Virus record (IMG/VR): IMGVR_UViG_3300027728_000006
Coordinates: 32,001 to 96,000 of that record
Strand: one strand, 5' to 3'
Origin: a virus
DNA: 64,000 bases
Part shown: positions 41,621 to 64,000 of the stretch, one piece after another
Layout of the letters: every line of letters begins with the position of its first letter
How positions within the stretch are numbered: the stretch's first letter is position 1
Translations under genes and position numbers: made by a program
The notes under the pieces: model-generated
Told to the model about the DNA's origin: nothing
Seen by the model: only the letters and a program-made list of their open reading frames with translations
Databases searched by the model: none

Positions 41621-41621
41621 A

Positions 41622-44489: not shown

Positions 44490-44531
44490 TTAAAAAGCCT
44501 TTTTTCCTTTATATTATATACCTACAAAAAC

Positions 44532-46376: not shown

Positions 46377-46389
46377 AATAAAAAATATT

Positions 46390-48042: not shown

Positions 48043-48049
48043 TATTTAC

Positions 48050-49773: not shown

Positions 49774-52700
49774 TTAAACTACGTTAGTTGGAGGAGGAGG
49801 TTTTATGAAGCCTCCTTTTTGAAGTTCAGCTTGCATTGCGACAACCCTTTGAACCACCTCTTGAACTTGATTTTTTATACTCTCCGCCAATTGACTAACT
49901 TGTGTTTCTGAATTTTCTACGCTTGCAACCCTTCCCTGCTCTATATTTATATTAATAGGCAAATTTATCGAATCTACATTTGTAGTATTACTAGCCTGAT
50001 CTCTTGATGAGTTGCCCGCAGCCCCCCCAGAGGTTCCTCGATCTGGAACCTGCTGACCAGGTGGAACCACACCATTTGACGCACCCGAGCCACCATTTGG
50101 AGGGGCTGGTTTGGGCGGCATGAAATTCTCAATAGGCTTCATTGCCGACGGTGAGTAATAGTTTTCCGAACCTGACATGTAATATCCATTTTTTTCTGCA
50201 TCTTTAATCTGAGCCGATTCAGCCTGCATTCTACTTAATTTCTTTTCGCCGCTTTCTGGAAATGGAAGCTCATCCCCCACAACAAAACTACTATTATAAC
50301 CACTAACTAAAGAACTCGCTGCACCCACTCTACTTTCACTTTTAATTACCTCTGCTGATGCAGCAGCCTGCTGACTTCTCGCCTGCTGAAGTGAAACAGC
50401 AGCACTTTTTACCAATTCATAAGCATCTGATTTTTTTAAAAAATCTTCGCTTGTTATATCCATTCCCTCTGGATCCGTACCAAATTCCTTTTGAACAATA
50501 TTGCCACGACCCAGCGCCACTTGAGCTCTAGCAAGACCGATATTTTTTTCAGAATAAATTTTGTCAGATTTAGCTATATAATCGGGATTTGTAGCTTCAC
50601 TTTCTGTAGCTATACTCATCCTGCCCACTTTTGTTTCTAAAGCAAACTTTTGCCTATCGTTAAATAACTGCTCTGCCTCCTCTACTTTCGCTTTCGCTTT
50701 TTGTTCTTCCCCTTGCGAATCTTTAAGACCACTCTCGGCATCTTTCTTTGCATTTTCAGCTGTGATTTTTCTTTCTGATATTTGACTGGCAATCAATCCG
50801 TCTTTTATGCCAGCAGCCATCTTAGAAACATCAAAAGATCCTTCTATAGCTTCCACCACGCTACTAAATCCATTACTACTAACTTTTGTTAATTCATTTA
50901 TACCTAAAAATTGAAGCTTACTATCTCCGCTAACGCCCTTGTAAGCGTCTTGCAATTCTTTTGGTAAATTTTCAAATTCTTTTTTAGTATAGTCCTCAGT
51001 TACCCCATCAACATATTGAGAACTGTCAATCACTCCCAACTTCTGCATTAATTGAAGATTTGAAGAAACGCTAGCCCCACCCTCCTTGTCTGTTCCAAGA
51101 GAAGACACCTGATCTCTCATACGCTTGAAAACATCTGAACCCAATGCTCCGCCAGACTGCTTTTCAAGATCGTCTATTGATTGAGCAAGCATCTGACTAT
51201 AACCTTGAGAAATTGCTTGGAAATTCATATCGCCCATACTCGTAATCGGGGCTCCAGTAAATTTTGTTAATGTAGACAACGTATCTGTCAACGCTCCTAA
51301 AGAATCAAGAGCTGGCGTTTTTCCAGTATTTTTATCTATAATTTTCCCATCCTCACCTTTTACTAAATTATTTACATTGTAGCCACCGCTAACGGTTTTT
51401 GATAAAGAATCTTTAGCTTGATTAATAAGCGAGTCCTCAGCTCCAAGTAAATTTGGAATTATCTGCTCTGCACCGCCCCCAAGATTTTGAGCCTGTGTTA
51501 TTTTTTCCTTAGCTCTGTCAAATGCAAGCTGCTGAGCAAGCAAAGCCTTTTGTTGTAATTCATTTCTATTCGAAATTTTAATACCATTATTTACTGAACC
51601 CAACTCCTGAATTGTTTTATTTTTAAGCTCCTGAATTTGAGTAGCTGTAAAACTGCCAGATGCGATCAATTTTTCTATCAGAGCATCCAATGTGCCCTTT
51701 GCTCCAGCGGTATCCCCCTGTAGGATTTGATTCATAGCTCCGCTTCCTATTAATTCATTTTTAAATTCCGTTTTTTTCAACTCGAATTCCGAAGTTGCTG
51801 ATTTTATTTCTGAATCGCTCATTCCAGAAGTGGCTTTTTCATCAAGAGAAGCAGAATTAATAAGATTTCCGATAGATTCAAAAATGCTAGTAGCGCCGGT
51901 TGTCTTTGCTTGCTCTTTTTCCTGTCTTGTCGTCTGCTCTATAGAGAAAATTCTATTATTTTCATCTCTCTTTTTGGAGACATTTGGCATATTAATCAAA
52001 TCGTAAATTTCTTTACCAAAATTTCCCCTATTACTTTCTAAATCTCCAGCGAACTTAACTTTACTTAAACCTTCTTCCATTGCATATTTAAAATCTGAAA
52101 AAAGTTGGTCTACTTCTGACTTTGCAGAGGAAACTCTAGCGCCGGCTTGATCGGCTCTCTGTCTATCCTGAGCTTTCTTTTCCGCCTCTTTCTTTTGCCT
52201 TTCTGCAATATTTTTTCTAACTTCTTCAATTTTTTCTTGTCCAGATATAAATTTATTATTTATCGTCTGATACTCTTGGAGCCATTGTTGCAATTGATCA
52301 GGTCTATTCATAGTATCTCTAAGACTAGATAGGATTTGAAGTTCCTCCGACGTCACTTCTCCACCACTTTTCGCATAAGATGCTTGCAAAGCATTTAAAA
52401 GTTGCCCCTTTAAATCTTGAAAGTTGTTCATATTTACCCCGCCGTCATTCTCTATCCCTAGGACTTGAATATCATTCAATTTTTTTGCAAAATCCCGAGA
52501 GCTTTCCAAAGCCTCATTCATTACGGTCGAAGGATCGTCAGTCGTTTTGGTATAATTATATGTTTGAGCAGTTACGCTTTGAACATCTTCACTAGAAAGT
52601 TTTCTACCATACATCAGATCAAGCATTTCAGAAAGACTCTTCCCAACATAGTCAGTCTTATCGTTTTCCGTCTGTATCCCAACCATTCTATCAAAAGCTG

Positions 52701-55700
52701 CTGATACATTATATAATTGTTTCCCAAGATTATTTATTGTAATATCAGAAAAAGCTTGAGTAAAGCTTCCCATTCTCTCAAAAACGCCTTCTTGCGCATT
52801 TTCATACGTCCCACGATTACTTGCAACTACTTCTTTAGATATTTTTTGTAAAGATAAACGCTCCAATATTTCAGAATAAACCACTTGCGCATTTCCTAAT
52901 CTTTCCGCTGCTACTAATTGCTCCTGATACTTAATAGGCATTGCTGTCAATGAGTCGATATACTGCTTTTCCGCCGTGATAATATCACCCTCGGAAGAAT
53001 TTGGATTAACTCTAATTTCAGCTAGTTTTTGAGAACTGTTTAAAAATTGCTGTGCCGAATCACTAAATTTTGTAAAATTTTCTGTCGCTGCTGTTACCGC
53101 TTTTTCTAATTCTGGCATTTTAGATGTAAATGCTTTTTCAATTTTTGGAATTTCCATTAACGCAGCTATTGCTGCGCCCGCAGCTGCTCCCCAAGGTCCA
53201 GCTATCAATGCTCCAGTTCCAGCCATTCCAGCTATATTGCCCAAGCCCTCGACGGTTGCAGCAGCCTCCCTACCGCCCTGCGTATTTTGCGGAATAAACG
53301 AAGCAATCTGTGGCGCGATGATCTGTGCAGCCATTCCAGCTTGCGAAGCTATTGATGCTAATCTTTGTTTTTTTTCTTGGGCTATTGATTTTCTTTGCTC
53401 CGCCACCGCTTCTTTATTTGAACTTATTAAATCTTTTCTACTTCGAAGCTCTTGCTCAGCCGCGTTCTTTTTTTCACTAGCGTCCTGATCAATTCTTTTT
53501 ACCTCTTTATCATAAGCATCGCTCAAAGCTGTTTTCGCGGCTTTAAGCCTTTCGTCTGCTTCCTGAATCCTTGGATCACCAATGGTAATTTGACCAGATG
53601 CCTGTTGAGCCATTAAGTCTTTATATATTTTGTCTTGGGCTTGCTTGTTTGCCGCCGCAGCCTTGAACTCAGGCGCGGATATCGCTTCTTTCAATGTATT
53701 CCTCTTATCCAATCTGTCGGTTTGCGCCTGAATCTCTTTTTCAAATGATGGAATTTCCGCAGAAGCCTTATCATTAGCCTCCGACATGTTCTTTATGGAT
53801 TTTTCACCCTCTTTAATACTTTCTCCAAATTGCCTCATTTCGCCTCTTAAAAATATGGCAGAAAAAGCCACGCCTTGAAGACCAGCAATTAAAGCGGCAA
53901 TTGTATTTTCATTACCATCTCCAGACGCATCAGCTGCAAAATTAGGAATGAACCCACTCGCCGCCCCATAAGTTTTCGGATTACGCCCCTCTTTTTTAGC
54001 TCTTTTAATCCCCTGAATTCCACCGCCTGGCTCATCTCGCCTATTTGCCACCATTAACCCCATTGGGTTATTTTTATTCTTTAAAGAACTATGCTTGTCA
54101 ACATATATTTGACTCTTAGACAAGCCAGAAGATTGCTCTCTTGCTATTGCATCATTTAAAGCATTTGAGAAATTAGGAATGAAACCAGAACTCAACCTCT
54201 TATTGAGAACTCTTGCGTTTAAAAAACCAGGCTTTCCCATTAAATCAAGGTTATCGTCAACTATTTTAGATCCTCGTTTTTGGGCTTCTACCAATTTGTC
54301 TTTTGGCTTGACGCCAAAACTAATTTTATTTACAGGAAGACCAAGTCTTGAAGAAGTTTCCCTTATTGCTTTTTCAAAAAGCGGCGGACGACTAGTCAAC
54401 ACATCAAACTTTTTCTTTCCAGCCTTTAACTTTTTACCTATAGGGAGAAGATCCCTTTCTTTCAAGGATCCTAATTGCCTTATATATTCATCTTCGCCGC
54501 CTCGAATTTTTGGAATAATTGTACCATCCCAATCATACATATTTTTTCTAACTTGATCTGCAAAATTTGGAATAAAACCACTAGCCGAGACGCCAGCCGA
54601 GCCGCCCATTGCAGAGGAAAAACGACCCTCAATTAAAGATCTGAATTTTGAACCTTCGGCAGATCTCCTAGACACATTAGACATGCGCTTATTACTTATA
54701 ATATCAAGACCTTCAAGATTTTTTACAAAAGTATTTTCATTCGCCGAAAGCGAAGCCAAATTACCCTTATTTTTAAATATTTTTTCCTGTATTCTTGTGG
54801 TAATTTCATCAACCGCCTTAGCACCAGAATATGTAGCTCCTGGGTTTTTACCATCAAAATCCAACTGAACAGGATTAAAACCCAATGATTTAAACAACTC
54901 ATTTTGATTTACATTCTTAAATATAGAAGAAGCCATTATGGATGAAACTCCAGCATATTTTCTAGGATCTGAAATGAGCCTACCAACACCCTCATTAGAA
55001 TTAGCTTTTGACATTGTAGCTTTTGAATAAGCCAAATGAGAAGCCTCATGGAATAATGTATCTGGTGTTGCTCCAACTCCCAACTGTATATTTGGCTTCA
55101 AACCAGGTTTTGAAAAATTAGCCCTTCCTCTGACCCCGAATGGCAAACTGCCATCCTTTTTTATATCTAAGAAATTTGGCACAAAGCCAGAAGCGTGTTG
55201 AGTTTGAAGATCGACTCCAAGACCCCCATATTCGTCAGCCTCCACATTCCCGAAATAACTTTGTAATTTTTTTGGATCTTTTTTTAATTCATTTATTTTA
55301 GCATTAACAAAGGATGCAAATTGATCGCGGGTCATCTTTTCTATTTCCATGCCCTTGTGACCATACACTTCAAACATGGAACTCTTAGCAAGATCTGCTC
55401 TTTTAATTTGCGGGTATAAAGTTTCGGCGGAAACAGGCTCTCCATTTTTTATTTTTTGAAGCAATCTATTCATCTGAGGCAACAATTGCCCCTTCATTTT
55501 TTTACCTTTATTTCTTTTTATTGCTTCTTCGTACAGGGCGCTACCGTACCCCTTACCCCTATATGCTTTTTCAACAGTAAGATCGCCAACATCCACATTG
55601 CCAGGCTTGTCTTCAGAGTAAGAAAATCCGCCCACTTTTTTACCGCCGAGAATAGCATTTATACTCGAAAAGCCAAACTCGTCTTTTTTGCTTTGAGAAA

Positions 55701-58700
55701 ATGAAAGACCAGAAGTTTTTGCAAAATTAGGAACAAAGCCGGAACTCGATAGCGGCACGCCATACTTATCAGCAAACATACCGCTTAAGCGTTTTAAAAT
55801 CTTAGGAGGCAATGTTTGCTTTTTCTTCTTTAAATCGTCACGAGCTTCCCTAAGAGTGATAATTTTTTGCTGTATGTCTTGTGGCGTATTTTTCGTTATT
55901 CTAGATGGCAATTCAGCAAGCTGATTTTCAATTGGGGTAAGATCCTTGTCAATCTCAGAACTGACCCTCCTCATTATCTCTTGAGCAGCCTCAGTTCTCC
56001 TCTTCATAGCTGGAGTTATTTGATTAATTGCTGGCAAGACGTGCTCCGGAAAAATTCTAGACATCGCCTCAGAATCACCAGACAACATAGCCTCCCTGGC
56101 TTTGGTTCCACTAATTCCTTCAGTTCTACTGCCAACTGAAACATCATAACCAGCCTGTTTATATTTTGTAAGATCTTTCTCTGTCTTATCAGAGCCAACA
56201 AAGGCTGTACTTCCAGGTTGTGCAGATAAGAATCTTCTCCTGCCCTCAACCGGATCAACTTCTAAATGGCGACGAATTCCCCCAGTAAAATCAGACCCAG
56301 CCTTAACTACATTAGCCCCCTCAAAAGTTTTCTGAGCCAAATATTTTCTAACGTTTTGGTCGAAGACCAAAGTCCTCAAGGAATGCGGATCATTTTGATC
56401 TAATTTTCCACCTTCTCTTGAAATAGCAACAACAAAATCCTCAGGAGGTATACCCTTACCCCTTGCCATATCCATCATCTCAAGATGACCCTTAGTAGAA
56501 GGAGAAAAAGCGCCATAAGCTAATCCCAAGCGTTTTTTTTCTACAATTGGCAGATCTTTTTCCTTTTTTCTTTTAAGTCCAAAATTGGGATTAATTCCCA
56601 TAATTCTTGTTTTTTCTGAACCCAAAGTGTCAAGAGCAACAGCCTCTATATAGGCGCTGTCTAGTCCAGCAGATGTCGAAGTTCCAGCCTCTCTTCCAAA
56701 ATTAGTTTTAGATGTCCCCTCCGAGATTTGAGAATCTCTTAAACTTCTTCTGCGCTTTATTTCTTCTTGCTCCGCTGGAGTAGAGGATGAGAGTATCATC
56801 AATCTATCTAATTCTGACCAATATCCTTTATCAATTGCAGCAGCGGTGCCAACCAGCGAAGCCCTAGTATCCACAATCTCGTCAACCTTGTCAATATCAG
56901 ATGGAATAATTATCGGAATTCTTTGCGTTTTCCTAAATTTTGAGTTATCAGCTCTTTCAGAATTTTTTCCACCAAGCATCATTGAACTTTTTCCAGCTCC
57001 AGGAACGCCAAAAACGCCTGTAAATTTCTTAAGAGATCCAGCCTTCCTGGACTTTTTAGCTAATTCTCCTAGGTATTTGTGATAACCAGCAACGCCGCCG
57101 CTTATACCTAAACTGGCTATTTGCTCTTCAACTATCGCGGTATATTTTGGATCGCTCAATACATCCCCGTCAAGATATCCTACCCTACGATCAGCAAAAT
57201 TAGGAATATAGCCAGAAGCTGAAGACGCAAGACCATGAACATCTACCCACTTCTTTAATGTACTTTTTAAATTATCTGGAGTTCTTGATATTTTTGCTTC
57301 ATACTGACCTGGAGCATTATGGAAAAACTTTTTAAGTTCAGGTGTTGGAGCTGGAAAATCTATTCTTTGAGTTTGACTTACAGCTGGAGCATTAAACGAT
57401 TTTCTTAAAGCAGTTTCGAAAACCGTTCCGGCAGCAGAACCAACAGAGCCAGCGTTGTCCAATGAAGAAGCGTCAGTTATCTGCTCTTTTCCTCCAAAAG
57501 TTTTAATTATGTTATTAGTAGCGCCAACTAAAGCATCCCCCACTACTCCCTTAATTCCATATCTTTGCAAATTAGTTCCAGAAGTATCCAGTCCAGCCGT
57601 TGCTATTTTAGCATCAAACAAATTATTACCAGCCTCTAATGAAACATTAGCCGAATCAAGACCCTGATTGCCGCCATGGACCATTGTATATCTATCTGAC
57701 AAATCGAGCTTTTTAACATCAAGGTTTTTCTTCTTTGCAGTTTTTTCTTTATCAACGGCGCGCATTGTTGTACCGCCGCCATACATCGCCTTAAATTTGC
57801 TACCCATCGACGCAAAATTAGGAACAAAGCCAGAAGCTTTACTTTCAAATAAATTTAATCCAACCCCTAACGCGGATAGATCTACCGTATCAGAATTGCT
57901 GTTTCCCTTATATGAAGGATTAGCTTTTCTTCCAAGATATGTAAGAGCCTTAGCATAAATAACATCGTCTTTTACTGGTTTTTTAGTAACTTTAGATTCT
58001 ACAAGTTGCTGCTTCGATAATTTATCTTTATATGAAAAATCTACCCCAAACTTATTTTTCAATTTAACAGGAGTAATGCCCATGTTTTTTAACATTATTT
58101 CTGTATCTATCTCTCCCAAAGCCCCCTTAACGTTACTTACATTGCCAATTTTGTTACCTGTAGCCAGCTTAGACTGATCGAAACTACCAGGTAAATAATT
58201 ACCAATAGGCACACCTTTATATTTTAAGGATGAGAGATCTTTTTTTTGCTCTAAAGAGCTATTTATTTTTATTTCTGCTATCTTATCATATGTTGAAGTA
58301 TTATAAGGTAATTTAATTCTATCAACTGATACATTTTCCGAATAATAATCAGTCTTGCTATTCTTTTTTCCACGAATTCCAAAATCATAAAGTTTTTTCA
58401 AATCGCCGCCACTCTTAACGCTGGACAAGCTCTCTACTTTGTTTTTAGCAAAATTAGGAATATACCCACCAGCAGCATATTGAGTATTTTCACCAAAACC
58501 ATTTGGAGGACGAACTACGGTAGCCTTTTTACCAGCAGCATTAGTAAATGTCTTTACATCTTCTTTATTATTAACAAAAGATTTAAACGACTTTCCATTG
58601 CCGTCATGTATGGTTGTTTTTTTAGCCTTGCCAGCCCTGTAGCCATGCTCTCTAGCGCCAGCATTTTCCATCGCTTGACCAACATTTCTATCGGACGCAA

Positions 58701-60348
58701 AATTTGGAACAAATCCAGATGAAAAAGTTTTTTTTCCAGTAGCGCTTGTTAAAGGTACGCCGCTAGCTCCAATACTTACTCCAGCTCTACCTAAATTGGC
58801 GGCTATTGTTTTGCTAATTCTCTCCTGCTCTCTCATCACATTCGATTGAGCGGTCAAATAATCAAGAAGTTGTTTTTCAGCTTGAACGGTCGTCATTTTG
58901 CCGCTCAGTATTTTTTCTGTAAATACGCTATTCTTTTGAAGAATTGAAAGAACACCTTGCTCTAATGCAGCTTGCTGCTTGGTAGCCTCATTTCTTCCAA
59001 GCAACTCTTTAGCAGATCCAGCGGCAAATTTTGCTAAATTTACAAATAATTTAGTTAAAACTGCAACAGCTAAAACAGTGCCAGGACCGCCAATAAAATT
59101 CGAAATGCCCTTAAAAAATCCCTCTATAAATTTACCACCTTGAGTTTCAGTATCTATTTTATTAAAAGATTCAATTATACCGTTGAAACTTGAAAGAAAA
59201 CCCTTAGCATTTGGTTCAAAAACCAATGATCCAATTTTACTAGCAGCCTCCTCCAAATTTGAAACCGCCTGAGAAGACAAAGCCGACAAAGTTTTATTCA
59301 ACTCTTGGTTTCTTTTTATAGCTTGATCAGTAGAGCTCAAAGAGGTTTCTAGCGCTCTATCATATATGCTATACTCTTTGCCCAAATCAGAAAGAGCTGC
59401 CTTCAAGATGTTAATTTGAAAAACCCCACCTACCTGCTCTGCAACATAAGATTTTTGTTTAGCTCCAAGAGTATCATAAGTTGAGGCTAATTGTTTTAGA
59501 AGATCTATTGCGCTTTGTCCCTCTGACGTATCAACCCCTAATGATCCTAAAAGGTCTTGAACCTTACCTCTTTGCAGTCTTGTAAAAATAGTTTTAAGTG
59601 AGTTACCAATTACGGCACCGCCTCTAGCAGTAGTTTGCTGAGCTGCCGTGACTATAGAAATGAGTTCATCCAATGAAACTCCAGCATCTTGAGCCGTAGA
59701 ACCAACTCTGCTAATAGCGTTAGCCAGGTCTGCTGAACTAACGGCAAACGCGGCATCGACATTGGCTAATTTATTCACAACTTGTACCGCGTCTAAAGCT
59801 GAACCAGAGAAAGAGTTGAGAGTAGCCGTCAAAGCTTCAACACTCCTCACCGTATCAAGTCCACTTAATCTGGCTAAAATTAAAGCGGCATTAGTTCTCT
59901 TAAGAGTTTCTTCAACTCCCAAGCCCTGCCTAGCCAGTTCGGTTGCCGCCTCAGCAACAGAAGAAAAACTTTGAGCTGTATTTTTAGCTATATCAAATAA
60001 TGATCCGCCAAATTTTTGCAAACTTGAAGAAGACAAATTAAGTAATACGTTGATATCTTGAAGCTTTTTTTCAACTTCTATAGTAGAAGTAATCAGCGAA
60101 GACAACGCCTTCTCAACGGCAAATATAGCTCCAGCTGATGCTCCGAAGGCTATAACGCGAGCATTTGAAGCTTCTAAACTCTTATTAAACTCACTTACTT
60201 GAGCAGTTATTCTTCCAAGCGCCTGAGAGCTTTTTTTCGTATTAATCTGAGAAAGCTCTATTGTTTTTAGAGCTTTCGCTATATCTTTTTCCATTTGGCG
60301 CGTATTTGCGCTAACGGAAATTGTTGCACTTGTTAAACCTGTAGCCAT
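49774..60348 (-). CDS. tail tape measure protein (TP901-type core) carrying a motif-delimited multi-enzyme array
   Basis: N-terminal TMP core (AEAATELARQGL, LANVDAAFAVSSADLA, RGGAVIGNSLKTIFTRL); Ala-rich helical/coiled-coil C-half; position after tail tube and chaperone-like genes. Confidence 0.92.
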   Translation of the reverse strand: MATGLTSATISVSANTRQMEKDIAKALKTIELSQINTKKSSQALGRITAQVSEFNKSLEASNARVIAFGASAGAIFAVEKALSSLITSTIEVEKKLQDINVLLNLSSSSLQKFGGSLFDIAKNTAQSFSSVAEAATELARQGLGVEETLKRTNAALILARLSGLDTVRSVEALTATLNSFSGSALDAVQVVNKLANVDAAFAVSSADLANAISRVGSTAQDAGVSLDELISIVTAAQQTTARGGAVIGNSLKTIFTRLQRGKVQDLLGSLGVDTSEGQSAIDLLKQLASTYDTLGAKQKSYVAEQVGGVFQINILKAALSDLGKEYSIYDRALETSLSSTDQAIKRNQELNKTLSALSSQAVSNLEEAASKIGSLVFEPNAKGFLSSFNGIIESFNKIDTETQGGKFIEGFFKGISNFIGGPGTVLAVAVLTKLFVNLAKFAAGSAKELLGRNEATKQQAALEQGVLSILQKNSVFTEKILSGKMTTVQAEKQLLDYLTAQSNVMREQERISKTIAANLGRAGVSIGASGVPLTSATGKKTFSSGFVPNFASDRNVGQAMENAGAREHGYRAGKAKKTTIHDGNGKSFKSFVNNKEDVKTFTNAAGKKATVVRPPNGFGENTQYAAGGYIPNFAKNKVESLSSVKSGGDLKKLYDFGIRGKKNSKTDYYSENVSVDRIKLPYNTSTYDKIAEIKINSSLEQKKDLSSLKYKGVPIGNYLPGSFDQSKLATGNKIGNVSNVKGALGEIDTEIMLKNMGITPVKLKNKFGVDFSYKDKLSKQQLVESKVTKKPVKDDVIYAKALTYLGRKANPSYKGNSNSDTVDLSALGVGLNLFESKASGFVPNFASMGSKFKAMYGGGTTMRAVDKEKTAKKKNLDVKKLDLSDRYTMVHGGNQGLDSANVSLEAGNNLFDAKIATAGLDTSGTNLQRYGIKGVVGDALVGATNNIIKTFGGKEQITDASSLDNAGSVGSAAGTVFETALRKSFNAPAVSQTQRIDFPAPTPELKKFFHNAPGQYEAKISRTPDNLKSTLKKWVDVHGLASSASGYIPNFADRRVGYLDGDVLSDPKYTAIVEEQIASLGISGGVAGYHKYLGELAKKSRKAGSLKKFTGVFGVPGAGKSSMMLGGKNSERADNSKFRKTQRIPIIIPSDIDKVDEIVDTRASLVGTAAAIDKGYWSELDRLMILSSSTPAEQEEIKRRRSLRDSQISEGTSKTNFGREAGTSTSAGLDSAYIEAVALDTLGSEKTRIMGINPNFGLKRKKEKDLPIVEKKRLGLAYGAFSPSTKGHLEMMDMARGKGIPPEDFVVAISREGGKLDQNDPHSLRTLVFDQNVRKYLAQKTFEGANVVKAGSDFTGGIRRHLEVDPVEGRRRFLSAQPGSTAFVGSDKTEKDLTKYKQAGYDVSVGSRTEGISGTKAREAMLSGDSEAMSRIFPEHVLPAINQITPAMKRRTEAAQEIMRRVSSEIDKDLTPIENQLAELPSRITKNTPQDIQQKIITLREARDDLKKKKQTLPPKILKRLSGMFADKYGVPLSSSGFVPNFAKTSGLSFSQSKKDEFGFSSINAILGGKKVGGFSYSEDKPGNVDVGDLTVEKAYRGKGYGSALYEEAIKRNKGKKMKGQLLPQMNRLLQKIKNGEPVSAETLYPQIKRADLAKSSMFEVYGHKGMEIEKMTRDQFASFVNAKINELKKDPKKLQSYFGNVEADEYGGLGVDLQTQHASGFVPNFLDIKKDGSLPFGVRGRANFSKPGLKPNIQLGVGATPDTLFHEASHLAYSKATMSKANSNEGVGRLISDPRKYAGVSSIMASSIFKNVNQNELFKSLGFNPVQLDFDGKNPGATYSGAKAVDEITTRIQEKIFKNKGNLASLSANENTFVKNLEGLDIISNKRMSNVSRRSAEGSKFRSLIEGRFSSAMGGSAGVSASGFIPNFADQVRKNMYDWDGTIIPKIRGGEDEYIRQLGSLKERDLLPIGKKLKAGKKKFDVLTSRPPLFEKAIRETSSRLGLPVNKISFGVKPKDKLVEAQKRGSKIVDDNLDLMGKPGFLNARVLNKRLSSGFIPNFSNALNDAIAREQSSGLSKSQIYVDKHSSLKNKNNPMGLMVANRRDEPGGGIQGIKRAKKEGRNPKTYGAASGFIPNFAADASGDGNENTIAALIAGLQGVAFSAIFLRGEMRQFGESIKEGEKSIKNMSEANDKASAEIPSFEKEIQAQTDRLDKRNTLKEAISAPEFKAAAANKQAQDKIYKDLMAQQASGQITIGDPRIQEADERLKAAKTALSDAYDKEVKRIDQDASEKKNAAEQELRSRKDLISSNKEAVAEQRKSIAQEKKQRLASIASQAGMAAQIIAPQIASFIPQNTQGGREAAATVEGLGNIAGMAGTGALIAGPWGAAAGAAIAALMEIPKIEKAFTSKMPELEKAVTAATENFTKFSDSAQQFLNSSQKLAEIRVNPNSSEGDIITAEKQYIDSLTAMPIKYQEQLVAAERLGNAQVVYSEILERLSLQKISKEVVASNRGTYENAQEGVFERMGSFTQAFSDITINNLGKQLYNVSAAFDRMVGIQTENDKTDYVGKSLSEMLDLMYGRKLSSEDVQSVTAQTYNYTKTTDDPSTVMNEALESSRDFAKKLNDIQVLGIENDGGVNMNNFQDLKGQLLNALQASYAKSGGEVTSEELQILSSLRDTMNRPDQLQQWLQEYQTINNKFISGQEKIEEVRKNIAERQKKEAEKKAQDRQRADQAGARVSSAKSEVDQLFSDFKYAMEEGLSKVKFAGDLESNRGNFGKEIYDLINMPNVSKKRDENNRIFSIEQTTRQEKEQAKTTGATSIFESIGNLINSASLDEKATSGMSDSEIKSATSEFELKKTEFKNELIGSGAMNQILQGDTAGAKGTLDALIEKLIASGSFTATQIQELKNKTIQELGSVNNGIKISNRNELQQKALLAQQLAFDRAKEKITQAQNLGGGAEQIIPNLLGAEDSLINQAKDSLSKTVSGGYNVNNLVKGEDGKIIDKNTGKTPALDSLGALTDTLSTLTKFTGAPITSMGDMNFQAISQGYSQMLAQSIDDLEKQSGGALGSDVFKRMRDQVSSLGTDKEGGASVSSNLQLMQKLGVIDSSQYVDGVTEDYTKKEFENLPKELQDAYKGVSGDSKLQFLGINELTKVSSNGFSSVVEAIEGSFDVSKMAAGIKDGLIASQISERKITAENAKKDAESGLKDSQGEEQKAKAKVEEAEQLFNDRQKFALETKVGRMSIATESEATNPDYIAKSDKIYSEKNIGLARAQVALGRGNIVQKEFGTDPEGMDITSEDFLKKSDAYELVKSAAVSLQQARSQQAAASAEVIKSESRVGAASSLVSGYNSSFVVGDELPFPESGEKKLSRMQAESAQIKDAEKNGYYMSGSENYYSPSAMKPIENFMPPKPAPPNGGSGASNGVVPPGQQVPDRGTSGGAAGNSSRDQASNTTNVDSINLPININIEQGRVASVENSETQVSQLAESIKNQVQEVVQRVVAMQAELQKGGFIKPPPPTNVV
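53935..58719 (-). repeat. nine dispersed in-frame copies of a 24-nt unit encoding (S/G)G(F/Y)(V/I)PNF(A/S/L)
   Basis: Copies at 58696-58719, 58447-58470, 57811-57834, 57193-57216, 55720-55743, 55168-55191, 54559-54582, 54166-54189, 53935-53958. Confidence 0.95.
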
Positions 60349-60409: not shown

Positions 60410-61456
60410 TTATTTCTTTGAATTTTTGGTATCCGTAGCTCTTATAGCATCATAAATATTCAATTCTCCGCCTTTATTTTGAGCAGCGTCCAGTAAGTTT
60501 GAATCATCAAGCCGAGAATTCATCCCGATCTCTTCGTAGTCAGACTTTTTTGCCCCCACTAATGAGGTTATTCTACCGCTTCTTTCACCGCGACTGTTCT
60601 TTTGGTTGGGAGACTTATCTAAAGCTTTCCTTGTTTTTGATGAAGAAGAACCACTTTCACACCAATCTACTAATTTTGAAGGGTCACAGAGTATTTCATC
60701 TGATATCTTTTCAGTTGTGTTATTTATCATTTTTCTATACATCGAAGCGTAAGAAAAAATATCTATTTGATAAGTAGTTAGTTGAGTTATTGGTTTTCCA
60801 TAAAAGTTATATATTGGGAAATCTGAGCCAGTTAATAAAATTAAATTTTGAAAAAACCCTGTAGCAGCCACATATTTCAAATTATCTATTTTTAATAAAT
60901 CTAATATTTTAGATATCTGAATCCACACCTCGTCATATACCTCATCCTCTAGGCAATCAAAGTAATCATTATTGTCAGAAACTGAAATAGAAAACGAAAC
61001 ATCTTTAAAAAGCAAATTATTCAAATAATAACGATGATAGTATTTTTCAGCGTATTCTTCCGCAGTAGTTGGTATAATACTTTTTCTTTCAGTTAAAATC
61101 TTATTGACTTTTCTTATTTCTTCGTCTATAGTTTTTTGAACACCATCCCTTTGAGATGGTAACATTAATTTTGATTTTGTTTTTATTAAATTTTCAATAA
61201 AGACGCGAGATTGGGCAATTTGGCTCTCTCTTTCCTTAGACCACCATTTTTTTTCTATATAAAATTTTAAATATTCCTCTTCAGTTTTTACACCATTTTT
61301 CTTAGCAATATCCAAACCTTCGCTATAGCGGTTTTTTAAAACTATTTTATCAGCATAATTAACATGCTTGAAAAAACATTTTTCACTAGATAGCCTTATC
61401 TCATCATGCCCCAAACAGATGCTGTGGTAAATCTTTTGGACCTCGTCATAGTCCAT
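60410..61456 (-). CDS. putative tail assembly chaperone
   Basis: 348-aa helical protein directly upstream of the TMP; call is positional. Confidence 0.4.
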   Translation of the reverse strand: MDYDEVQKIYHSICLGHDEIRLSSEKCFFKHVNYADKIVLKNRYSEGLDIAKKNGVKTEEEYLKFYIEKKWWSKERESQIAQSRVFIENLIKTKSKLMLPSQRDGVQKTIDEEIRKVNKILTERKSIIPTTAEEYAEKYYHRYYLNNLLFKDVSFSISVSDNNDYFDCLEDEVYDEVWIQISKILDLLKIDNLKYVAATGFFQNLILLTGSDFPIYNFYGKPITQLTTYQIDIFSYASMYRKMINNTTEKISDEILCDPSKLVDWCESGSSSSKTRKALDKSPNQKNSRGERSGRITSLVGAKKSDYEEIGMNSRLDDSNLLDAAQNKGGELNIYDAIRATDTKNSKK

Positions 61457-61473
61457 ATTTTATATAAAGTTAC

Positions 61474-62277
61474 TTACAAGTTTTCAACTGAGACATTCGA
61501 AGAATCCTGCTTCTCCTCTACAGCGGGCTCATCAATTTCTTTTTTAGCCTCACTTAGACTTTCTTCCTTCTCGGTCTCCCGCTGCTCTTCTTCAATTCTC
61601 TTTAAGAATTCATTGTCTAAAAGCTCAAACTCATAAAAATTATTAGCACTACCCAAATACCAAATTGTTACAAGATAATTAATTCTAGAAAAAACTTTAT
61701 TAAGAAAATCGTTAGTTTCGACTACTTCGTCATAATAATCTAACTTAGAATCTATGTCGCCGCCATTTAATAAAGCCTTGTGATCACCAATTGAGTCCAC
61801 TTCTACTCCCAAATTTGCCGCCCACCAAACTATTGACTTATTGCGAGCCTTAGCCTCCGCAGTATACTCAAAGGCATTAATTTGTGAAAGCTCTAAATCC
61901 TGCATCTGCTTTCTCAATAAAACTGTCTCCGCCTGCAATTCTAACAATTTACTCTTCTCTTCCTCACTTCTTTCGCTTTCTTTCTTTGCAGAAAGTTTTT
62001 CAATTTTTTCACGAGTCTCTGACAATTCAACAAACACTGCAGAATATTCTTTTTTTTCAGCTTCTGAAATTGTTCCGCCTTGATCTTTAAACATTTTATC
62101 CCAAAGAATTTTTGGCAATATTCCAGATCCTATAAATTGAGATAATTTTGAGGCATAATAAAGCTCGCCCTCTTCTTTTAATTTTCTATTTGGTTTTAAA
62201 ATCGCAAATTTACGACTTACTCCAGAATCATTCTTTGCTTCAAATGAATACAGATATTTTTTATTTTTATCACTCAT
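61474..62277 (-). CDS. putative tail assembly chaperone
   Basis: 267-aa coiled-coil protein between tail tube and TMP; shares a TAE motif after the coiled coil with the next gene. Confidence 0.4.
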   Translation of the reverse strand: MSDKNKKYLYSFEAKNDSGVSRKFAILKPNRKLKEEGELYYASKLSQFIGSGILPKILWDKMFKDQGGTISEAEKKEYSAVFVELSETREKIEKLSAKKESERSEEEKSKLLELQAETVLLRKQMQDLELSQINAFEYTAEAKARNKSIVWWAANLGVEVDSIGDHKALLNGGDIDSKLDYYDEVVETNDFLNKVFSRINYLVTIWYLGSANNFYEFELLDNEFLKRIEEEQRETEKEESLSEAKKEIDEPAVEEKQDSSNVSVENL

Positions 62278-62294
62278 AATTTTTCCTTTTTCCT

Positions 62295-62326
62295 TTTATT
62301 TTACCGTTTATTTTACCGTTTATTTT
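62295..62326. repeat. 12-bp direct repeat TTTATTTTACCG in intergenic DNA
   Basis: 2 full copies plus a partial copy. Confidence 0.7.
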
Positions 62327-62383
62327 ATTTTTTTAAATAAATTTTATTTCAAAATTACAGATAGCGCTCAAAAGAATGTGCAT

Positions 62384-62617
62384 TTAAACTATTTCCATGC
62401 TTGAAAAAAGAGAAGAAATTTGTTCTTCAGAATTTCTAACGGCGGCATTTCCCCTATCAAGAATTTCTTTTCTTTTAAGTGAATATTCTTGTTCGTCAAT
62501 TAAGCCTCTCTTTAATAATTCTTCAACGTAAACTAGGTGAGAAATGAATAAGAACTTCATTTCTTTTTCTATCTTTTGTGACAAGAACTTGTCAAAATTA
62601 AATTCAAATTTTTGCAT
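62384..62617 (-). CDS. hypothetical protein
   Basis: 77 aa, preceded by GTGTAATA at 62662-62669. Confidence 0.6.
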   Translation of the reverse strand: MQKFEFNFDKFLSQKIEKEMKFLFISHLVYVEELLKRGLIDEQEYSLKRKEILDRGNAAVRNSEEQISSLFSSMEIV

Positions 62618-62679
62618 AATCCTTTTAAACCTTACTTTTAATTTCCTTTTTTCCTAAATGCTATTACACAATAAATAAA

Positions 62680-62707
62680 AAAAAGAGACTCCGAAGAGTC
62701 TCTTTTT
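62680..62707 (-). terminator. rho-independent terminator (possibly bidirectional)
   Basis: Perfect 12-bp inverted repeat AAAAAGAGACTC/GAGTCTCTTTTT; C(UUCG)G loop on the minus strand followed by a U-run. Confidence 0.88.
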
Positions 62708-62731
62708 AATAATATATAATATTATAAGGTA

Positions 62732-63037
62732 TTAATTAAATAAGTTTTTTACTGAATGAGTTACTTTAGATGATTGACCAGGAACAGGAATCGAAGCAGT
62801 AATTGCAGGCTCCTGCTCTAATTTAACAGGCTCAACTTTTGGCTGGACTTCAACTTTTGGCTGGACTTCAACTTTTGGTTTACCATTCAATTTAAAATTT
62901 TCAGAAATATAATCGAAGTCATGACTTGAAAGCTCCACGCTACTGCCTTGAACTTTTCCTCTTTTTTTAACCTCTTCAACGTACCCAGCGGCTCTCTCAC
63001 GAGCCGCCGAATAAATTGTTTTTAGTGGAATTTTCAT
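62732..63037 (-). CDS. hypothetical protein with PKVEVQ repeat
   Basis: 101 aa; 18-bp tandem repeat at 62832-62878. Confidence 0.6.
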   Translation of the reverse strand: MKIPLKTIYSAARERAAGYVEEVKKRGKVQGSSVELSSHDFDYISENFKLNGKPKVEVQPKVEVQPKVEPVKLEQEPAITASIPVPGQSSKVTHSVKNLFN

Positions 63038-63056
63038 TTTTTAAAAATGAATTTTA

Positions 63057-64000
63057 TTAGGGGGCTACCGGATAACTTCCAGACATGAAAACGCCCTTGG
63101 TCGAATCTTCAGGTCCGCCGATACTTACTTCATACTCAAGAGACACAGAAGCATTATCACCGATTGAAGTAGTCAAGCTTTCTGACAATAATTTTGCACC
63201 TTTCAATTGAGCAATAAGTGCCGGAGCGCCATTCCCCGAACAGTCATTCTTTTTCATTGTTATCGTGAGCGTATACACATCAGTCTCGCAAAGAAGATTA
63301 GCCAAGTTAAAGTCAGCCAATTCACCCATCTGAGCTTCAACAGAAAGTGAGGCTGTCACAGGGAAATCAATTTCACGACTAAATGGGAATCTGCTACCTA
63401 ATTTCTCAATTGGAGTTCTACTCAAGTCAGTTGACAAAGTAAAACTTTGAATTTTAATATCATTTGCCTCAAAGCCTTTGACCTGGTCATTACTTAAAGT
63501 AAAAGTAATATCTCCAGGTCTTAAAACTGTAACTTGAGTATCATTGTCATCTCCTGAAGATTGAGGTATTGTGAAAGATATTCCTGTGATCTTCGTACCA
63601 GCAGCAGGATCAATAGCTGGAATATGATTTACACCAGTGATGTCAGAGTAAACTGCAAAATTGAGAGCCTCAAAGTCGGCACTTGCTGTTGGCACGTCTC
63701 CAACTGAAGCCTCCAATGAATAAGATGTTAAGAATGCATTTCCTAAACCGAATACGCCAGTTTTGTCGCCGACATATCCCACATTATCGCTACCCTCCTT
63801 GGCAACAGTTAAAAAGTAATTCTTTTCATCAGTCTTTTTATTTAAGATACCCGATAAAATTGATACTGGCAGTCCACTTAATCCGCAAACACTAAGTCCA
63901 ACATAGCTTTCATTACTTCCATCAGTTGGGTACCATGAAGTACTCATGTTAACAGTTGGAGCCTCAACTTCGATACGGTCGATAGCAGCTAATTGACCAT
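63057..64000 (-). CDS. putative major tail (tube) protein, 5'-truncated
   Basis: Frame stays open to the window edge (..GQLAAIDRIEVEAPTVNMST..); beta-rich, IQSFTLS..LSRTPIEKLG..F..SR; upstream of chaperones and TMP, followed by a strong terminator. Confidence 0.6.
   Translation of the reverse strand, partial: GQLAAIDRIEVEAPTVNMSTSWYPTDGSNESYVGLSVCGLSGLPVSILSGILNKKTDEKNYFLTVAKEGSDNVGYVGDKTGVFGLGNAFLTSYSLEASVGDVPTASADFEALNFAVYSDITGVNHIPAIDPAAGTKITGISFTIPQSSGDDNDTQVTVLRPGDITFTLSNDQVKGFEANDIKIQSFTLSTDLSRTPIEKLGSRFPFSREIDFPVTASLSVEAQMGELADFNLANLLCETDVYTLTITMKKNDCSGNGAPALIAQLKGAKLLSESLTTSIGDNASVSLEYEVSIGGPEDSTKGVFMSGSYPVAP

What the first reader, a model, noticed from the sequence alone, without database searches (positions are those of the whole stretch)
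53935..58719. Tape measure protein carries a cassette array of enzyme domains delimited by a conserved SGFVPNFA peptide: candidate tail-delivered effector polyprotein
Seen in sequence: nine in-frame copies of (S/G)G(F/Y)(V/I)PNF(A/S/L), starting at aa ~544, 627, 839, 1045, 1536, 1720, 1923, 2054 and 2131. They divide ~1590 aa into eight modules of about 75, 204, 198, 483, 176, 195, 123 and 69 aa. Each recognisable enzyme module lies wholly between two copies and none crosses a motif. In order they are: small domain, nuclease-like, nuclease-like, kinase plus nucleotidyltransferase, GNAT, metallopeptidase, HAD phosphatase, small domain. Established: TMPs fill the tail lumen, are ejected on infection and are often proteolytically processed. 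These enzyme classes are also typical of phage 'polyvalent' conflict proteins. Inference: the motif is a cleavage or recognition signal that releases separate host-takeover or anti-defence enzymes at injection, before any phage gene is expressed. I do not know of a described TMP with this architecture, but I cannot search to confirm novelty.
Basis: partly seen in the sequence, partly recalled or inferred. Interest (0 to 1): 0.95.

Follow-up and report, generated by a model that had tools for sequence, protein, structure and literature searches.

The report
Motif-fenced enzyme cassettes in tape-measure protein
The tail "ruler" protein of an uncultured aquatic phage carries eight separately built modules, several with enzyme signatures, each fenced by the same ten-residue peptide; hundreds of related phages swap modules exactly at that peptide, so it looks like a plug-in system for taking ready-made proteins into the host, but neither cutting nor delivery has been shown.

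Summary
The ORF at 49774-60348 (-) is a 3,524-aa TP901-family tape measure protein (TMP). It holds nine copies of G[FY][VI]PNF where 1.3e-4 are expected, and they fence eight modules. At least 581 IMG/VR loci encode relatives. In 83 loci (1.73 Mb), all 303 strict copies lie in the TMP and none elsewhere. The full delimiter is A-[AS]-[SG]-G-[FY]-[IV]-P-N-F-A, and its flanks are unconserved. The ancestral array is C-core-A. About 60 module families are inserted, lost or swapped, with breakpoints exactly on the motif.

Module identities are only partly supported. GNAT is solid. The P-loop plus HIGH-nucleotidyltransferase, HExxH and HAD modules rest on invariant motifs. "Nuclease-like" rests on an E..D..(D/E)xK pattern alone, and a confident model of the core module matches no known fold.

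New here: the kinase-NTase cassette occurs almost only inside giant TMPs, and a sister lineage fences it with a different peptide (GG-h-[IV]-Q-K-F-A-x-GG). Pro-Asn chemistry is therefore not essential.

Cleavage and injection remain untested. The HExxH module is too rare to be the general protease. The scan has reported this architecture before on other genomes. No cultured phage or paper describing it was found.

The parts
49774..60348 (-). Tape measure protein gene, 3,524 aa (P0001)
   Evidence: Single ORF. PF10145 PhageMin_Tail at aa 121-308, E 4.5e-25. 80 homologous giant TMPs.
59425..59988 (-). PhageMin_Tail domain (aa 121-308)
   Evidence: Pfam PF10145, 89 bits against a cut-off of 33.2. 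28-30% identical to Bacillus and Lactococcus phage TMPs.
59017..59097 (-). Hydrophobic segment aa 418-444, about 100 aa before the first delimiter
   Evidence: Kyte-Doolittle scan. A segment like it is present in 140 of 145 family TMPs.
58696..58725 (-). Delimiter 1 (aa 542-551)
58468..58698 (-). Module 1, family C (77 aa): conserved first frame module, no known family
   Evidence: First module in most family TMPs. Alignment A7. No Pfam or PHROG match.
58447..58476 (-). Delimiter 2 (aa 625-634)
57832..58449 (-). Module 2, family a (206 aa): rare cargo of unknown family
   Evidence: Found in only 3 TMPs. No Pfam or PHROG match. No profile match to the core module.
57811..57840 (-). Delimiter 3 (aa 837-846)
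57214..57813 (-). Module 3, family B (200 aa): the family's universal core module, with an E..D..(D/E)xK..K pattern
   Evidence: Alignment A2 of 40 sequences. Invariant residues are G974, F977, E978, D997, K1019 and K1033. AF2 mean pLDDT 83. No fold match.
57193..57222 (-). Delimiter 4 (aa 1043-1052)
55741..57195 (-). Module 4, family I (485 aa): P-loop (Walker A, aa 1114-1121) plus HIGH-type nucleotidyltransferase (T-x-G-H at 1282-1288, ISGT at 1411-1418), with a relic delimiter at 1250-1256
   Evidence: Motifs conserved in 15 family members. Weak Pfam hits PF16581 and PF01467. In 1.84 billion proteins it is found almost only inside giant TMPs.
55720..55749 (-). Delimiter 5 (aa 1534-1543)
55189..55722 (-). 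Module 5, family D (178 aa): GNAT acetyltransferase
   Evidence: PF00583, 29.8 bits against a cut-off of 20.7, E 7.8e-7. Present in 39 of 80 close homologues.
55168..55197 (-). Delimiter 6 (aa 1718-1727; ends in L, not A)
54580..55170 (-). Module 6, family F (197 aa): HExxH module, a candidate zincin
   Evidence: H1767, E1768 and H1771 are invariant in 21 of 21 members. No Pfam match. No free-standing homologue. Atlas lead to LPD23, carried by 18% of that cluster.
54559..54588 (-). Delimiter 7 (aa 1921-1930)
54187..54561 (-). Module 7, family L (125 aa): small HAD-type phosphatase
   Evidence: DWDGT is invariant in 9 of 9 members; LTSRP and VDDN motifs are present. Atlas neighbours are viral NT5C, Acid_PPase and HAD_PNKP clusters. 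No Pfam match.
54166..54195 (-). Delimiter 8 (aa 2052-2061; ends in S)
53956..54168 (-). Module 8, family A (71 aa): conserved last frame module
   Evidence: Last module in 74 of 80 homologues. Alignment A8. Predicted as a small alpha-beta-beta-alpha unit at pLDDT 59-81 in a relative.
53935..53964 (-). Delimiter 9 (aa 2129-2138)
53842..53907 (-). Hydrophobic segment aa 2148-2169, 10 aa after the last delimiter
49777..53928 (-). C-terminal 1,384 aa, rich in A/E/K/L/Q: the presumed ruler and channel part
   Evidence: Composition 42% AEKLQ and a further hydrophobic segment at aa 2379-2398.
60410..61456 (-). Conserved 348-aa protein directly upstream of the TMP, function unknown
   Evidence: Present in 73 of 80 loci at a median distance of 53 bp. 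No Pfam, PHROG or PDB relative.
61474..62277 (-). Conserved 267-aa protein, second upstream of the TMP, function unknown
   Evidence: Present in 70 of 80 loci. No Pfam, PHROG or PDB relative.

Best explanation
The gene encodes a TP901-family tape measure protein whose N-proximal third (aa 545-2137) is a cassette array. Eight independently evolving modules are joined by a TMP-specific ten-residue delimiter, A-[AS]-[SG]-G-[FY]-[IV]-P-N-F-A.

Shown: three modules (C, the core B and A) are the ancestral frame, and the other five (a, I, D, F, L) are accessory cargo. Relatives gain, lose and exchange cargo in frame, exactly at the delimiter. The delimiter is conserved as a peptide, not as DNA.

Inferred: the TMP leaves the tail C-terminus first, so the array enters last, just ahead of the DNA. 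This resembles the TMP-fused virion RNA polymerase of Thermus phage P23-45. The GNAT, P-loop/nucleotidyltransferase, HExxH and HAD modules would then act in the host cytoplasm before any phage gene is expressed.

Most speculative step: the delimiter is a short linear signal read by one conserved trans-acting factor, most likely a site-specific protease that frees the modules. My odds: cassette architecture 0.95, virion-delivered cargo about 0.6, cleavage at the delimiter about 0.35.
For: TMP identity: PF10145.

The motif is far beyond chance: 9 copies against 1.3e-4 expected.

The motif is TMP-exclusive: 303 of 303 strict copies lie in the TMP ORF across 1.73 Mb of 83 related loci, and in this genome it occurs only in the TMP.

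Logo over 743 distinct instances: ten conserved positions with unconserved G/S/K-rich flanks, as expected for a linear signal in a linker.

Codon use inside the motif matches the background, so selection acts on the peptide.

Architectures: 2-12 copies per TMP, a C...A frame and about 60 module families.

Swap breakpoints fall on the motif to the residue. P0001 against the 95%-identical P0002 is 39/40 identical up to the motif and unrelated after it. The same holds against P0003 and P0010.

Catalytic-type residues are kept across divergent copies: core E/D/K, HExxH 21/21, DxDGT 9/9, Walker A and T-x-G-H, and GNAT above the Pfam cut-off. This argues for working enzymes rather than spacers.

The only junction with a decayed motif lies inside the two-domain I cassette, whose halves always travel together. 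This fits a signal whose job is to separate modules.

Envelope-acting SLT and glucosaminidase domains of relatives lie outside the array, in the C-terminal part.

Precedent for a TMP-fused enzyme acting after ejection: PMC10770324. Precedent for processed, injected multi-enzyme proteins: PMC5512222.
Against: No direct evidence of cleavage, packaging state or delivery exists, and the clade has no cultured member.

No protease was found. The HExxH module occurs in only 21 of 80 close homologues. The conserved neighbours match no family.

Ten nearly invariant residues are more than most viral polyprotein sites need. That degree of conservation fits a binding or structural peptide equally well.

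P23-45 vRNAP is thought to work while still fused to its TMP, so release is not required.

Folded modules totalling about 175 kDa per chain cannot plausibly sit folded in a roughly 4-nm tail lumen (my own estimate). Storage therefore needs an unfolded state, which has not been shown.

Most cargo families have no recognisable enzyme signature.

The array model of a relative was of low confidence (pLDDT 51), so the 'flexible linker' reading rests mainly on sequence.
Confidence: 0.5

Rival explanations
1. The delimiter is not cut. It is an assembly or packing signal: a repeated docking peptide for the tail assembly chaperone, for the conserved 348-aa and 267-aa proteins encoded just upstream, for the inner wall of the tail tube, or for keeping the TMP chains in register. 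It would keep globular modules unfolded or ordered while the tube polymerises. On this reading the modules stay tethered to the TMP after ejection, like the P23-45 virion RNA polymerase.
For: The motif occurs only in the TMP. Ten residues are conserved with aromatic and Pro residues, which is typical of peptide-domain docking. Two unknown proteins are conserved directly upstream in 70-73 of 80 loci. The delimiter sequence differs between lineages whose tail genes are only 22-27% identical, as co-evolving partners would. P23-45 vRNAP is proposed to act while fused. The array lies between hydrophobic segments, so it could work as a tethered loop.
Against: No partner has been identified. A docking signal need not sit at every module junction, nor coincide with every swap breakpoint. 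The decayed copy inside the fused I cassette is more easily explained by a separating signal. Enzymes with different cellular targets would be constrained by tethering, as argued for polyvalent proteins in PMC5512222.
Confidence: 0.3
2. The modules do not act in the cytoplasm as host-takeover enzymes. They serve the tail itself: as length or geometry spacers, as envelope-penetration or periplasm-acting domains, or as channel accessories. The delimiters are then just the joints of a beads-on-a-string ruler.
For: TMPs commonly embed envelope-acting domains, and SLT and glucosaminidase are seen in relatives. Most cargo families have no enzyme signature. The universal core module has no known fold. 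Array length varies from 86 to 2,289 aa with no compensating change in the rest of the protein.
Against: GNAT, P-loop kinase, HIGH-nucleotidyltransferase and HAD enzymes use acetyl-CoA, ATP/NTP and phosphorylated metabolites, which are cytoplasmic substrates (established biochemistry). Their catalytic motifs are invariant. The recognisable muralytic domains of relatives lie outside the array.
Confidence: 0.1
3. The delimiter has no biochemical role of its own. It persists because it supplies short DNA homology, or simply a tolerated in-frame joint, for recombination that shuffles cassettes.
For: Breakpoints coincide with the motif. Copies within the window share exact DNA runs of 8-20 nt.
Against: Amino acids are fixed while synonymous codons vary at background frequencies: all four Gly codons, CCT/CCA, TTT/TTC. 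Ten residues are held across TMPs whose N-terminal parts are only 41-53% identical and over 743 distinct instances. The four ancestral copies around C, core and A are kept even in TMPs with no accessory cargo.
Confidence: 0.07

Closest known systems
Thermus phage P23-45 gp96, a 5,002-aa TMP whose N-terminal part is a virion RNA polymerase (Nat Commun 2024, PMC10770324)
   Same: A giant TMP carries a working enzyme in its N-proximal part. The enzyme leaves the tail with the TMP and acts before phage genes are expressed.
   Different: P23-45 has one fixed enzyme, with no repeated delimiter and no cassette exchange. It is proposed to act while fused. No sequence relation was found.
Polyvalent proteins of phages and conjugative elements (Iyer et al. 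2017, PMC5512222)
   Same: Many unrelated enzyme domains (including GNAT, peptidases and nucleases) sit in one giant polypeptide that is delivered with the DNA. Architectures vary, and zincin-like peptidases are proposed to release the domains. An Atlas lead links module 6 to LPD23, carried by 18% of that cluster.
   Different: Those proteins are head-packaged or conjugation-delivered; the word 'tape' does not occur in the paper. No conserved delimiter peptide is described there. Here the HExxH module is optional.
TMPs with embedded envelope-acting domains and C-terminal maturation cleavage (T5 pb2, lambda gpH, JBD30; SPbeta YomI)
   Same: The same N-terminal TMP family: 28-30% identity to SPbeta YomI and other Bacillus phage TMPs. 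TMPs can carry enzymes and be proteolytically processed (PMC11445458).
   Different: Known cases have one or two murein hydrolase or peptidase domains near the C-terminus and a single cleavage. They have no multi-cassette array of cytoplasm-type enzymes and no repeated signal.
Sle1-type TMP-related effectors of actinobacterial contractile injection systems (J Bacteriol 2026, PMC13277306)
   Same: A TMP-derived scaffold with an exchangeable functional domain, loaded in a tail-like tube and described as a reconfigurable platform.
   Different: One variable C-terminal domain per protein, in a non-phage particle, with no delimiter motif. No homology was tested here.
Viral polyproteins with repeated protease sites or 2A peptides (own knowledge)
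   Same: One translation product is divided into functional units by a short recurrent peptide.
   Different: Those are eukaryotic RNA-virus strategies with a known protease or ribosome skipping. No such mechanism is known for a phage structural protein, and none is shown here.

Membership tests
TP901-family phage tail tape measure protein (PF10145 / TIGR01760 type) | PhageMin_Tail domain near the N-terminus | tested here: met
   PF10145 at aa 121-308, 89.1 bits against a cut-off of 33.2. The same domain is found in nearly all homologues.
TP901-family phage tail tape measure protein (PF10145 / TIGR01760 type) | Gene lies in the tail module, after the tube and chaperone genes and before the distal tail genes | tested here: inconclusive
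   Gene order is conserved in 70+ loci, with large ORFs downstream. None of the neighbours matches Pfam or PHROGs.
TP901-family phage tail tape measure protein (PF10145 / TIGR01760 type) | Hydrophobic segments and a long helix-favouring remainder | tested here: met
   Hydrophobic segments at aa 418-444, 2148-2169 and 2379-2398. The C-terminal 1,387 aa are 42% A/E/K/L/Q.
Polyvalent proteins (Iyer et al. 2017) | Several unrelated enzymatic domains in one giant polypeptide, with variable architectures among relatives | tested here: met
Polyvalent proteins (Iyer et al. 2017) | Zincin-like metallopeptidase domain for processing | tested here: inconclusive
   The invariant HExxH in module 6 has no Pfam match. 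It is present in only 21 of 80 homologues.
Polyvalent proteins (Iyer et al. 2017) | Packaged in the virion and delivered with the DNA | not testable with these tools
   Delivery is inferred only from the protein being a TMP.
GNAT acetyltransferase (PF00583) | Pfam match above the gathering score | tested here: met
   Module 5 alone scores 29.8 bits against 20.7, E 7.8e-7. The match covers the acetyl-CoA-binding core only (profile positions 33-89 of 116).
HAD-superfamily phosphatase | Motif I DxDx(T/V), motif II S/T, motif III K and motif IV acidic pair | tested here: met
   DWDGT at aa 1939-1943 is invariant in 9 of 9 members. LTSRP is at 1984-1988 and VDDN at 2030-2033. Atlas neighbours are all of the HAD clan.
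HAD-superfamily phosphatase | Profile match to a curated HAD family | tested here: not met
   No Pfam family at E <= 1 and no PDB sequence relative. The module is therefore filed as HAD-like by motifs, not as a member of a named family.
P-loop kinase plus HIGH-motif nucleotidyltransferase (module 4) | Walker A GxxxxGK[ST]; (H/T)xGH and ISxT/KMSKS-like motifs | tested here: met
   GVPGAGKS at aa 1114-1121, STKGH at 1284-1288 and ISGTKAR at 1412-1418, conserved in 15 members.
P-loop kinase plus HIGH-motif nucleotidyltransferase (module 4) | Profile match above the curated cut-off | tested here: not met
   PF16581 scores 17.7 against 26.7 and PF01467 scores 13.6 against 21. PDB gives only a 39-residue match to MJ0951, E 0.15.
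PD-(D/E)xK nuclease fold (modules 3 and 2) | Conserved E ... D ... (D/E)xK catalytic pattern | tested here: met
   Module 3: E978, D997 and K1019 (plus K1033) are invariant in 40 sequences spanning four sub-families. Module 2: a similar pattern in only 3 sequences.
PD-(D/E)xK nuclease fold (modules 3 and 2) | Alpha-beta-beta-beta-alpha-beta core fold similar to solved nucleases | tested here: inconclusive
Protease-processed viral polyprotein | Cleavage at the recurrent site and a cognate protease | not testable with these tools
   No protease was identified and no proteomic data are available.

The most novel reading that the evidence does not exclude
Giant tape measure proteins of a large, uncultured clade of aquatic phages are injected polyproteins. 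A lineage-specific decapeptide (GFIPNFA type here, GGLIQKFAxGG type in a sister lineage) would be a dedicated processing signal, and any folded module can be plugged in between two copies. After ejection, a still-unknown protease would cut at every copy. That protease could be one of the two conserved orphan proteins upstream, or a host enzyme. Cutting would release a customisable cocktail of enzymes into the host before any phage gene is transcribed. About 60 cargo families, most of them of unknown fold, would then be a reservoir of new host-takeover and anti-defence activities.
Probability: 0.3. Interest if true: 0.9.

Novelty: new variant of a known kind. Interest (0 to 1): 0.78.

Why it matters
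If the array is delivered, phage tails can carry a programmable set of enzymes into the cell ahead of the genome. That would extend the single known case of a TMP-fused enzyme (P23-45 RNA polymerase) to a modular system used by hundreds of uncultured phages.

The delimiter gives a simple sequence handle for finding cargo. About 60 module families were recovered here, and most have no known fold. One of them is a universal core module with conserved catalytic-type residues.

The case is also a clean natural example of recent in-frame domain shuffling in TMPs, which a systematic survey could not confirm (PMC10684548).

For engineering, a natural 'insert between two delimiters' rule suggests a route to loading foreign proteins into phage tails.

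Tried and rejected
1. A complex prediction of a 38-aa delimiter peptide with the two conserved upstream proteins gave 'no answer' (score 0.01). It is no evidence either way.
2. AF2 on a minimal C-core-A array of a relative (A3) gave mean pLDDT 51 and pTM 0.26. All four motifs fall in low-confidence coil. The model is too weak to count as structural evidence.
3. The fold of the core module was searched with Foldseek PDB, VIA-align wide, Foldseek BFVD and a profile against PDB sequences. None gave a credible match.
4. Single-sequence PDB searches of modules 4, 6 and 7 gave nothing useful.
5. Word-based searches for free-standing homologues of modules 6 and 7 found none.
6. Profile comparison found no homology between modules C and A (probability 0.2%), or between module 2 and the core.
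7. Neighbouring and upstream structural genes were checked against Pfam, PHROGs and PDB. No family and no protease was found.
8. blastn and tblastn of the array against 50,697 GenBank phage records gave no match.
9. The motif strings are absent from 8.4 million papers except in chance human or bacterial peptides.
10. Ideas considered and set aside:
- Asn-mediated self-cleavage at PN|F. The sister lineage's delimiter lacks Pro-Asn.
- A 2A-like ribosome skip. This is not known in bacteria and nothing supports it here.
- A prohead-protease site shared with capsid proteins. The motif is absent outside the TMP.
- The HExxH module as the universal protease. It is present in only 21 of 80 homologues.
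- Compensation of array length by the rest of the TMP. None was seen; rho is +0.29 and is not corrected for phylogeny.
The DNA context of the P-numbered homologues therefore could not be fetched, and module alignments were limited to IMG/VR loci.
Full report
**What is there.** Window 49774-60348 (-) is one 3,524-aa ORF. It carries PF10145 (PhageMin_Tail) at aa 121-308 with E 4.5e-25, so it is a TP901-family tape measure protein (TMP). The window is part of a 104-kb IMG/VR virus record estimated 67% complete. G[FY][VI]PNF occurs nine times, with the G at aa 545, 628, 840, 1046, 1537, 1721, 1924, 2055 and 2132. From the protein's composition 1.3e-4 copies are expected, and 20,000 shuffles gave 7 copies in all. 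In the whole record the degenerate DNA pattern hits only these nine places.

**The motif in the family.** A search of 5.8 billion proteins with the array region returned 80 TMPs of 1,984-4,812 aa with 2-12 motif copies each. In the 83 loci fetched (1.73 Mb, six frames), all 303 strict copies lie in the TMP ORF and none lies elsewhere. Over 743 distinct instances the conserved unit is ten residues, A-[AS]-[SG]-G-[FY]-[IV]-P-N-F-A. Its flanks carry no information beyond a G/S/K-rich upstream side. Codon use inside the motif follows the gene's background: all four Gly codons, TTT 83% against 83%, AAT 87% against 84%. The peptide, not the DNA, is therefore under selection. Exact DNA runs shared by the window's copies are only 8-20 nt.

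**Cassette behaviour.** I cut every TMP at the motif and clustered the pieces, which gave about 60 module families. The commonest architecture in the wider family is C (about 76 aa), one core module (200-390 aa; sub-families B/G, V and S) and A (about 70 aa), with four motifs. The window's protein reads C-a-B-I-D-F-L-A. Relatives read C-a-B-T-D-F-L-A-b-A, C-N-B-D-F-L-A, C-K-B-D-F-A, and so on.

Breakpoints fall on the motif to the residue. Against the 95%-identical P0002, identity is 39/40 up to the fourth motif and nil after it. It returns to 40/40 right after the next motif. The same pattern holds against P0003 and P0010. It is also a genuine case of recent in-frame shuffling in TMPs, which a systematic survey had not been able to confirm (PMC10684548).

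**What the modules are.**
- Module 5 is a GNAT: PF00583, 29.8 bits against a cut-off of 20.7.
- Module 4 has a Walker A motif (aa 1114-1121), a T-x-G-H motif (1282-1288) and an ISGT motif (1411-1418). All are conserved in 15 members. Its Pfam and PDB matches are sub-threshold only: PF16581, PF01467 and MJ0951.
- Module 6 has an HExxH that is invariant in 21 of 21 members. It has no Pfam match and no free-standing homologue. An Atlas lead points to LPD23, a polyvalent-protein domain carried by 18% of that cluster.
- Module 7 has the HAD motifs, with DWDGT invariant in 9 of 9 members. Its Atlas neighbours are all small viral HAD phosphatases.
- Module 2 has no support.
- Modules C and A are conserved frame modules of unknown family, and they are not detectably related to each other.
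- Most other cargo families are invisible to Pfam.
- The SLT and glucosaminidase domains of relatives lie outside the array, in the C-terminal part.

**New observations bearing on mechanism.**
1. A full HMMER search of 1.84 billion representative proteins with module 4 gave only 98 hits. Nearly all lie inside proteins of 1,500-7,279 aa, and the two that were tested are PF10145 TMPs. This cassette is thus essentially TMP-restricted.
2. About 60 of those giants have no PNF motif at all. In them the cassette is preceded (19 of 60) or followed (13 of 60) by G-G-[LVIM]-[IV]-Q-[KR]-F-A-x-G-G, against a background of 0.29 per 1,000 aa. This peptide shares only G-hydrophobic-[IV]-x-x-F-A with the window's delimiter. 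Whatever the delimiter does, Pro-Asn chemistry is therefore not essential, and the signal differs between lineages whose tail genes are only 22-27% identical.
3. The one decayed copy (M-G-I-N-x-N-F) sits between the kinase and nucleotidyltransferase halves of module 4, which always travel together.
4. The array lies after a hydrophobic segment that is conserved in 140 of 145 TMPs. In the window it ends 10 aa before another hydrophobic segment.
5. Two orphan proteins (348 aa and 267 aa) are conserved directly upstream of the TMP in 70-73 of 80 loci. They have no Pfam, PHROG or PDB relatives.

**How it most likely works.**
- Shown: the TMP carries a cassette array whose joints are a TMP-specific peptide under strong peptide-level selection. 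Cargo is exchanged at the joints, and catalytic-type residues in several cargo modules are maintained.
- Inferred from established TMP biology and the P23-45 precedent (PMC10770324): the TMP leaves the tail C-terminus first. The N-proximal array enters last, just ahead of the DNA. Enzymes that use acetyl-CoA and ATP act in the cytoplasm.
- Most speculative: the delimiter is read by one conserved factor. A protease that frees the modules is my first choice (about 0.35). It explains why the signal sits at every joint and why it decays where two domains stay fused. A non-cleaved docking or packing role is nearly as likely (about 0.3).
- Against a general cis-protease: the HExxH module is optional.
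- Against a shared prohead-protease site: the motif is absent from other ORFs.
- Open problem: folded modules of about 175 kDa per chain cannot plausibly be stored folded in a tail lumen (my own estimate). An unfolded stored state is implied but not shown.

**Comparison and novelty.** The closest known systems are:
- the P23-45 TMP-fused RNA polymerase, which is one fixed enzyme with no delimiter;
- polyvalent proteins (PMC5512222), which share the logic but are head- or conjugation-delivered and have no delimiter; that paper never mentions tape measure proteins;
- TMPs with C-terminal muralytic domains and a single maturation cleavage;
- Sle1-type TMP-related effectors of contractile injection systems.

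No cultured phage in GenBank has the array. Only the N-terminal domain matches Bacillus and Lactococcus phage TMPs, at 28-30% identity. The motif strings do not occur in the searchable literature in this context. Genome hits are all MAG bins, among them Flavobacteriales and Neomarinimicrobiota, so the host is unknown.

Earlier stages of this scan reported the same architecture on several other genomes. I reached the same core conclusion independently. What I add is the universal core module, the TMP restriction of the kinase-NTase cassette and the sister-lineage delimiter. I rate it a new variant of a known kind (virion-delivered multi-enzyme proteins and TMP-fused enzymes), with a delimiter-based cassette mechanism that appears undescribed.

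**Limits.**
- No experiment or proteome was available.
- The complex prediction gave no answer.
- The array model was of low confidence.

Noticed in passing
Proteins P0086-P0151; loci L115-L123: A sister lineage of giant TMPs (3,000-7,279 aa; contigs up to 243 kb) carries the same kinase-NTase cassette but has no PNF motif. There the cassette is flanked by G-G-h-[IV]-Q-[KR]-F-A-x-G-G. The proteins also hold 2-7 copies, about 1 kb apart, of a second repeat, T-D-T-V-P-A-M-L-T-P-G-E-F-V-V-N. Its first copy lies near aa 540, the same place as the first PNF copy in the window's TMP.
   Followed up: partly
window 60410-61456 (-) and 61474-62277 (-): Two proteins (348 aa and 267 aa) lie directly upstream of the TMP and are conserved in 70-73 of 80 related loci. 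They have no Pfam, PHROG or PDB relatives. They sit where tail assembly chaperones usually lie but are much larger, so they are candidates for the factor that reads the delimiter.
   Followed up: partly
window 57214-57813 (-): The universal core module gives a confident AF2 model (pLDDT 83): a three-stranded sheet plus helices, with invariant E, D and K residues. It has no match in PDB or BFVD, so it may be a new or very divergent fold.
   Followed up: yes
window 56581-56601 (-), aa 1250-1256: A relic delimiter (M-G-I-N-P-N-F; M-G-I-N-x-N-F in relatives) lies between the P-loop and nucleotidyltransferase halves of module 4. This suggests two former cassettes fused into one.
   Followed up: partly
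window 29272-36117 (+): A 2,281-aa protein with at least eight IPT/TIG repeats (PF01833, E 2e-74) is encoded on the opposite strand. It is possibly a fibre or adhesin.
   Followed up: no
window 36821-49765 (-) and 60410-63998 (-); loci L011, L013, L014: Almost none of the structural genes around the TMP match PHROGs or Pfam, so the clade is very distant from cultured phages. All 23 hits in 185,579 species genomes are MAG contigs binned to many phyla (Flavobacteriales, Neomarinimicrobiota, Proteobacteria and others), which probably reflects phage contigs mis-binned into MAGs.
   Followed up: partly
window 53842-53907 (-) and 59017-59097 (-): Hydrophobic, membrane-like segments bracket the array at aa 418-444 and 2148-2169. 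The upstream one is conserved in 140 of 145 family TMPs. Only 10 of 145 TMPs have such a segment inside the array.
   Followed up: partly
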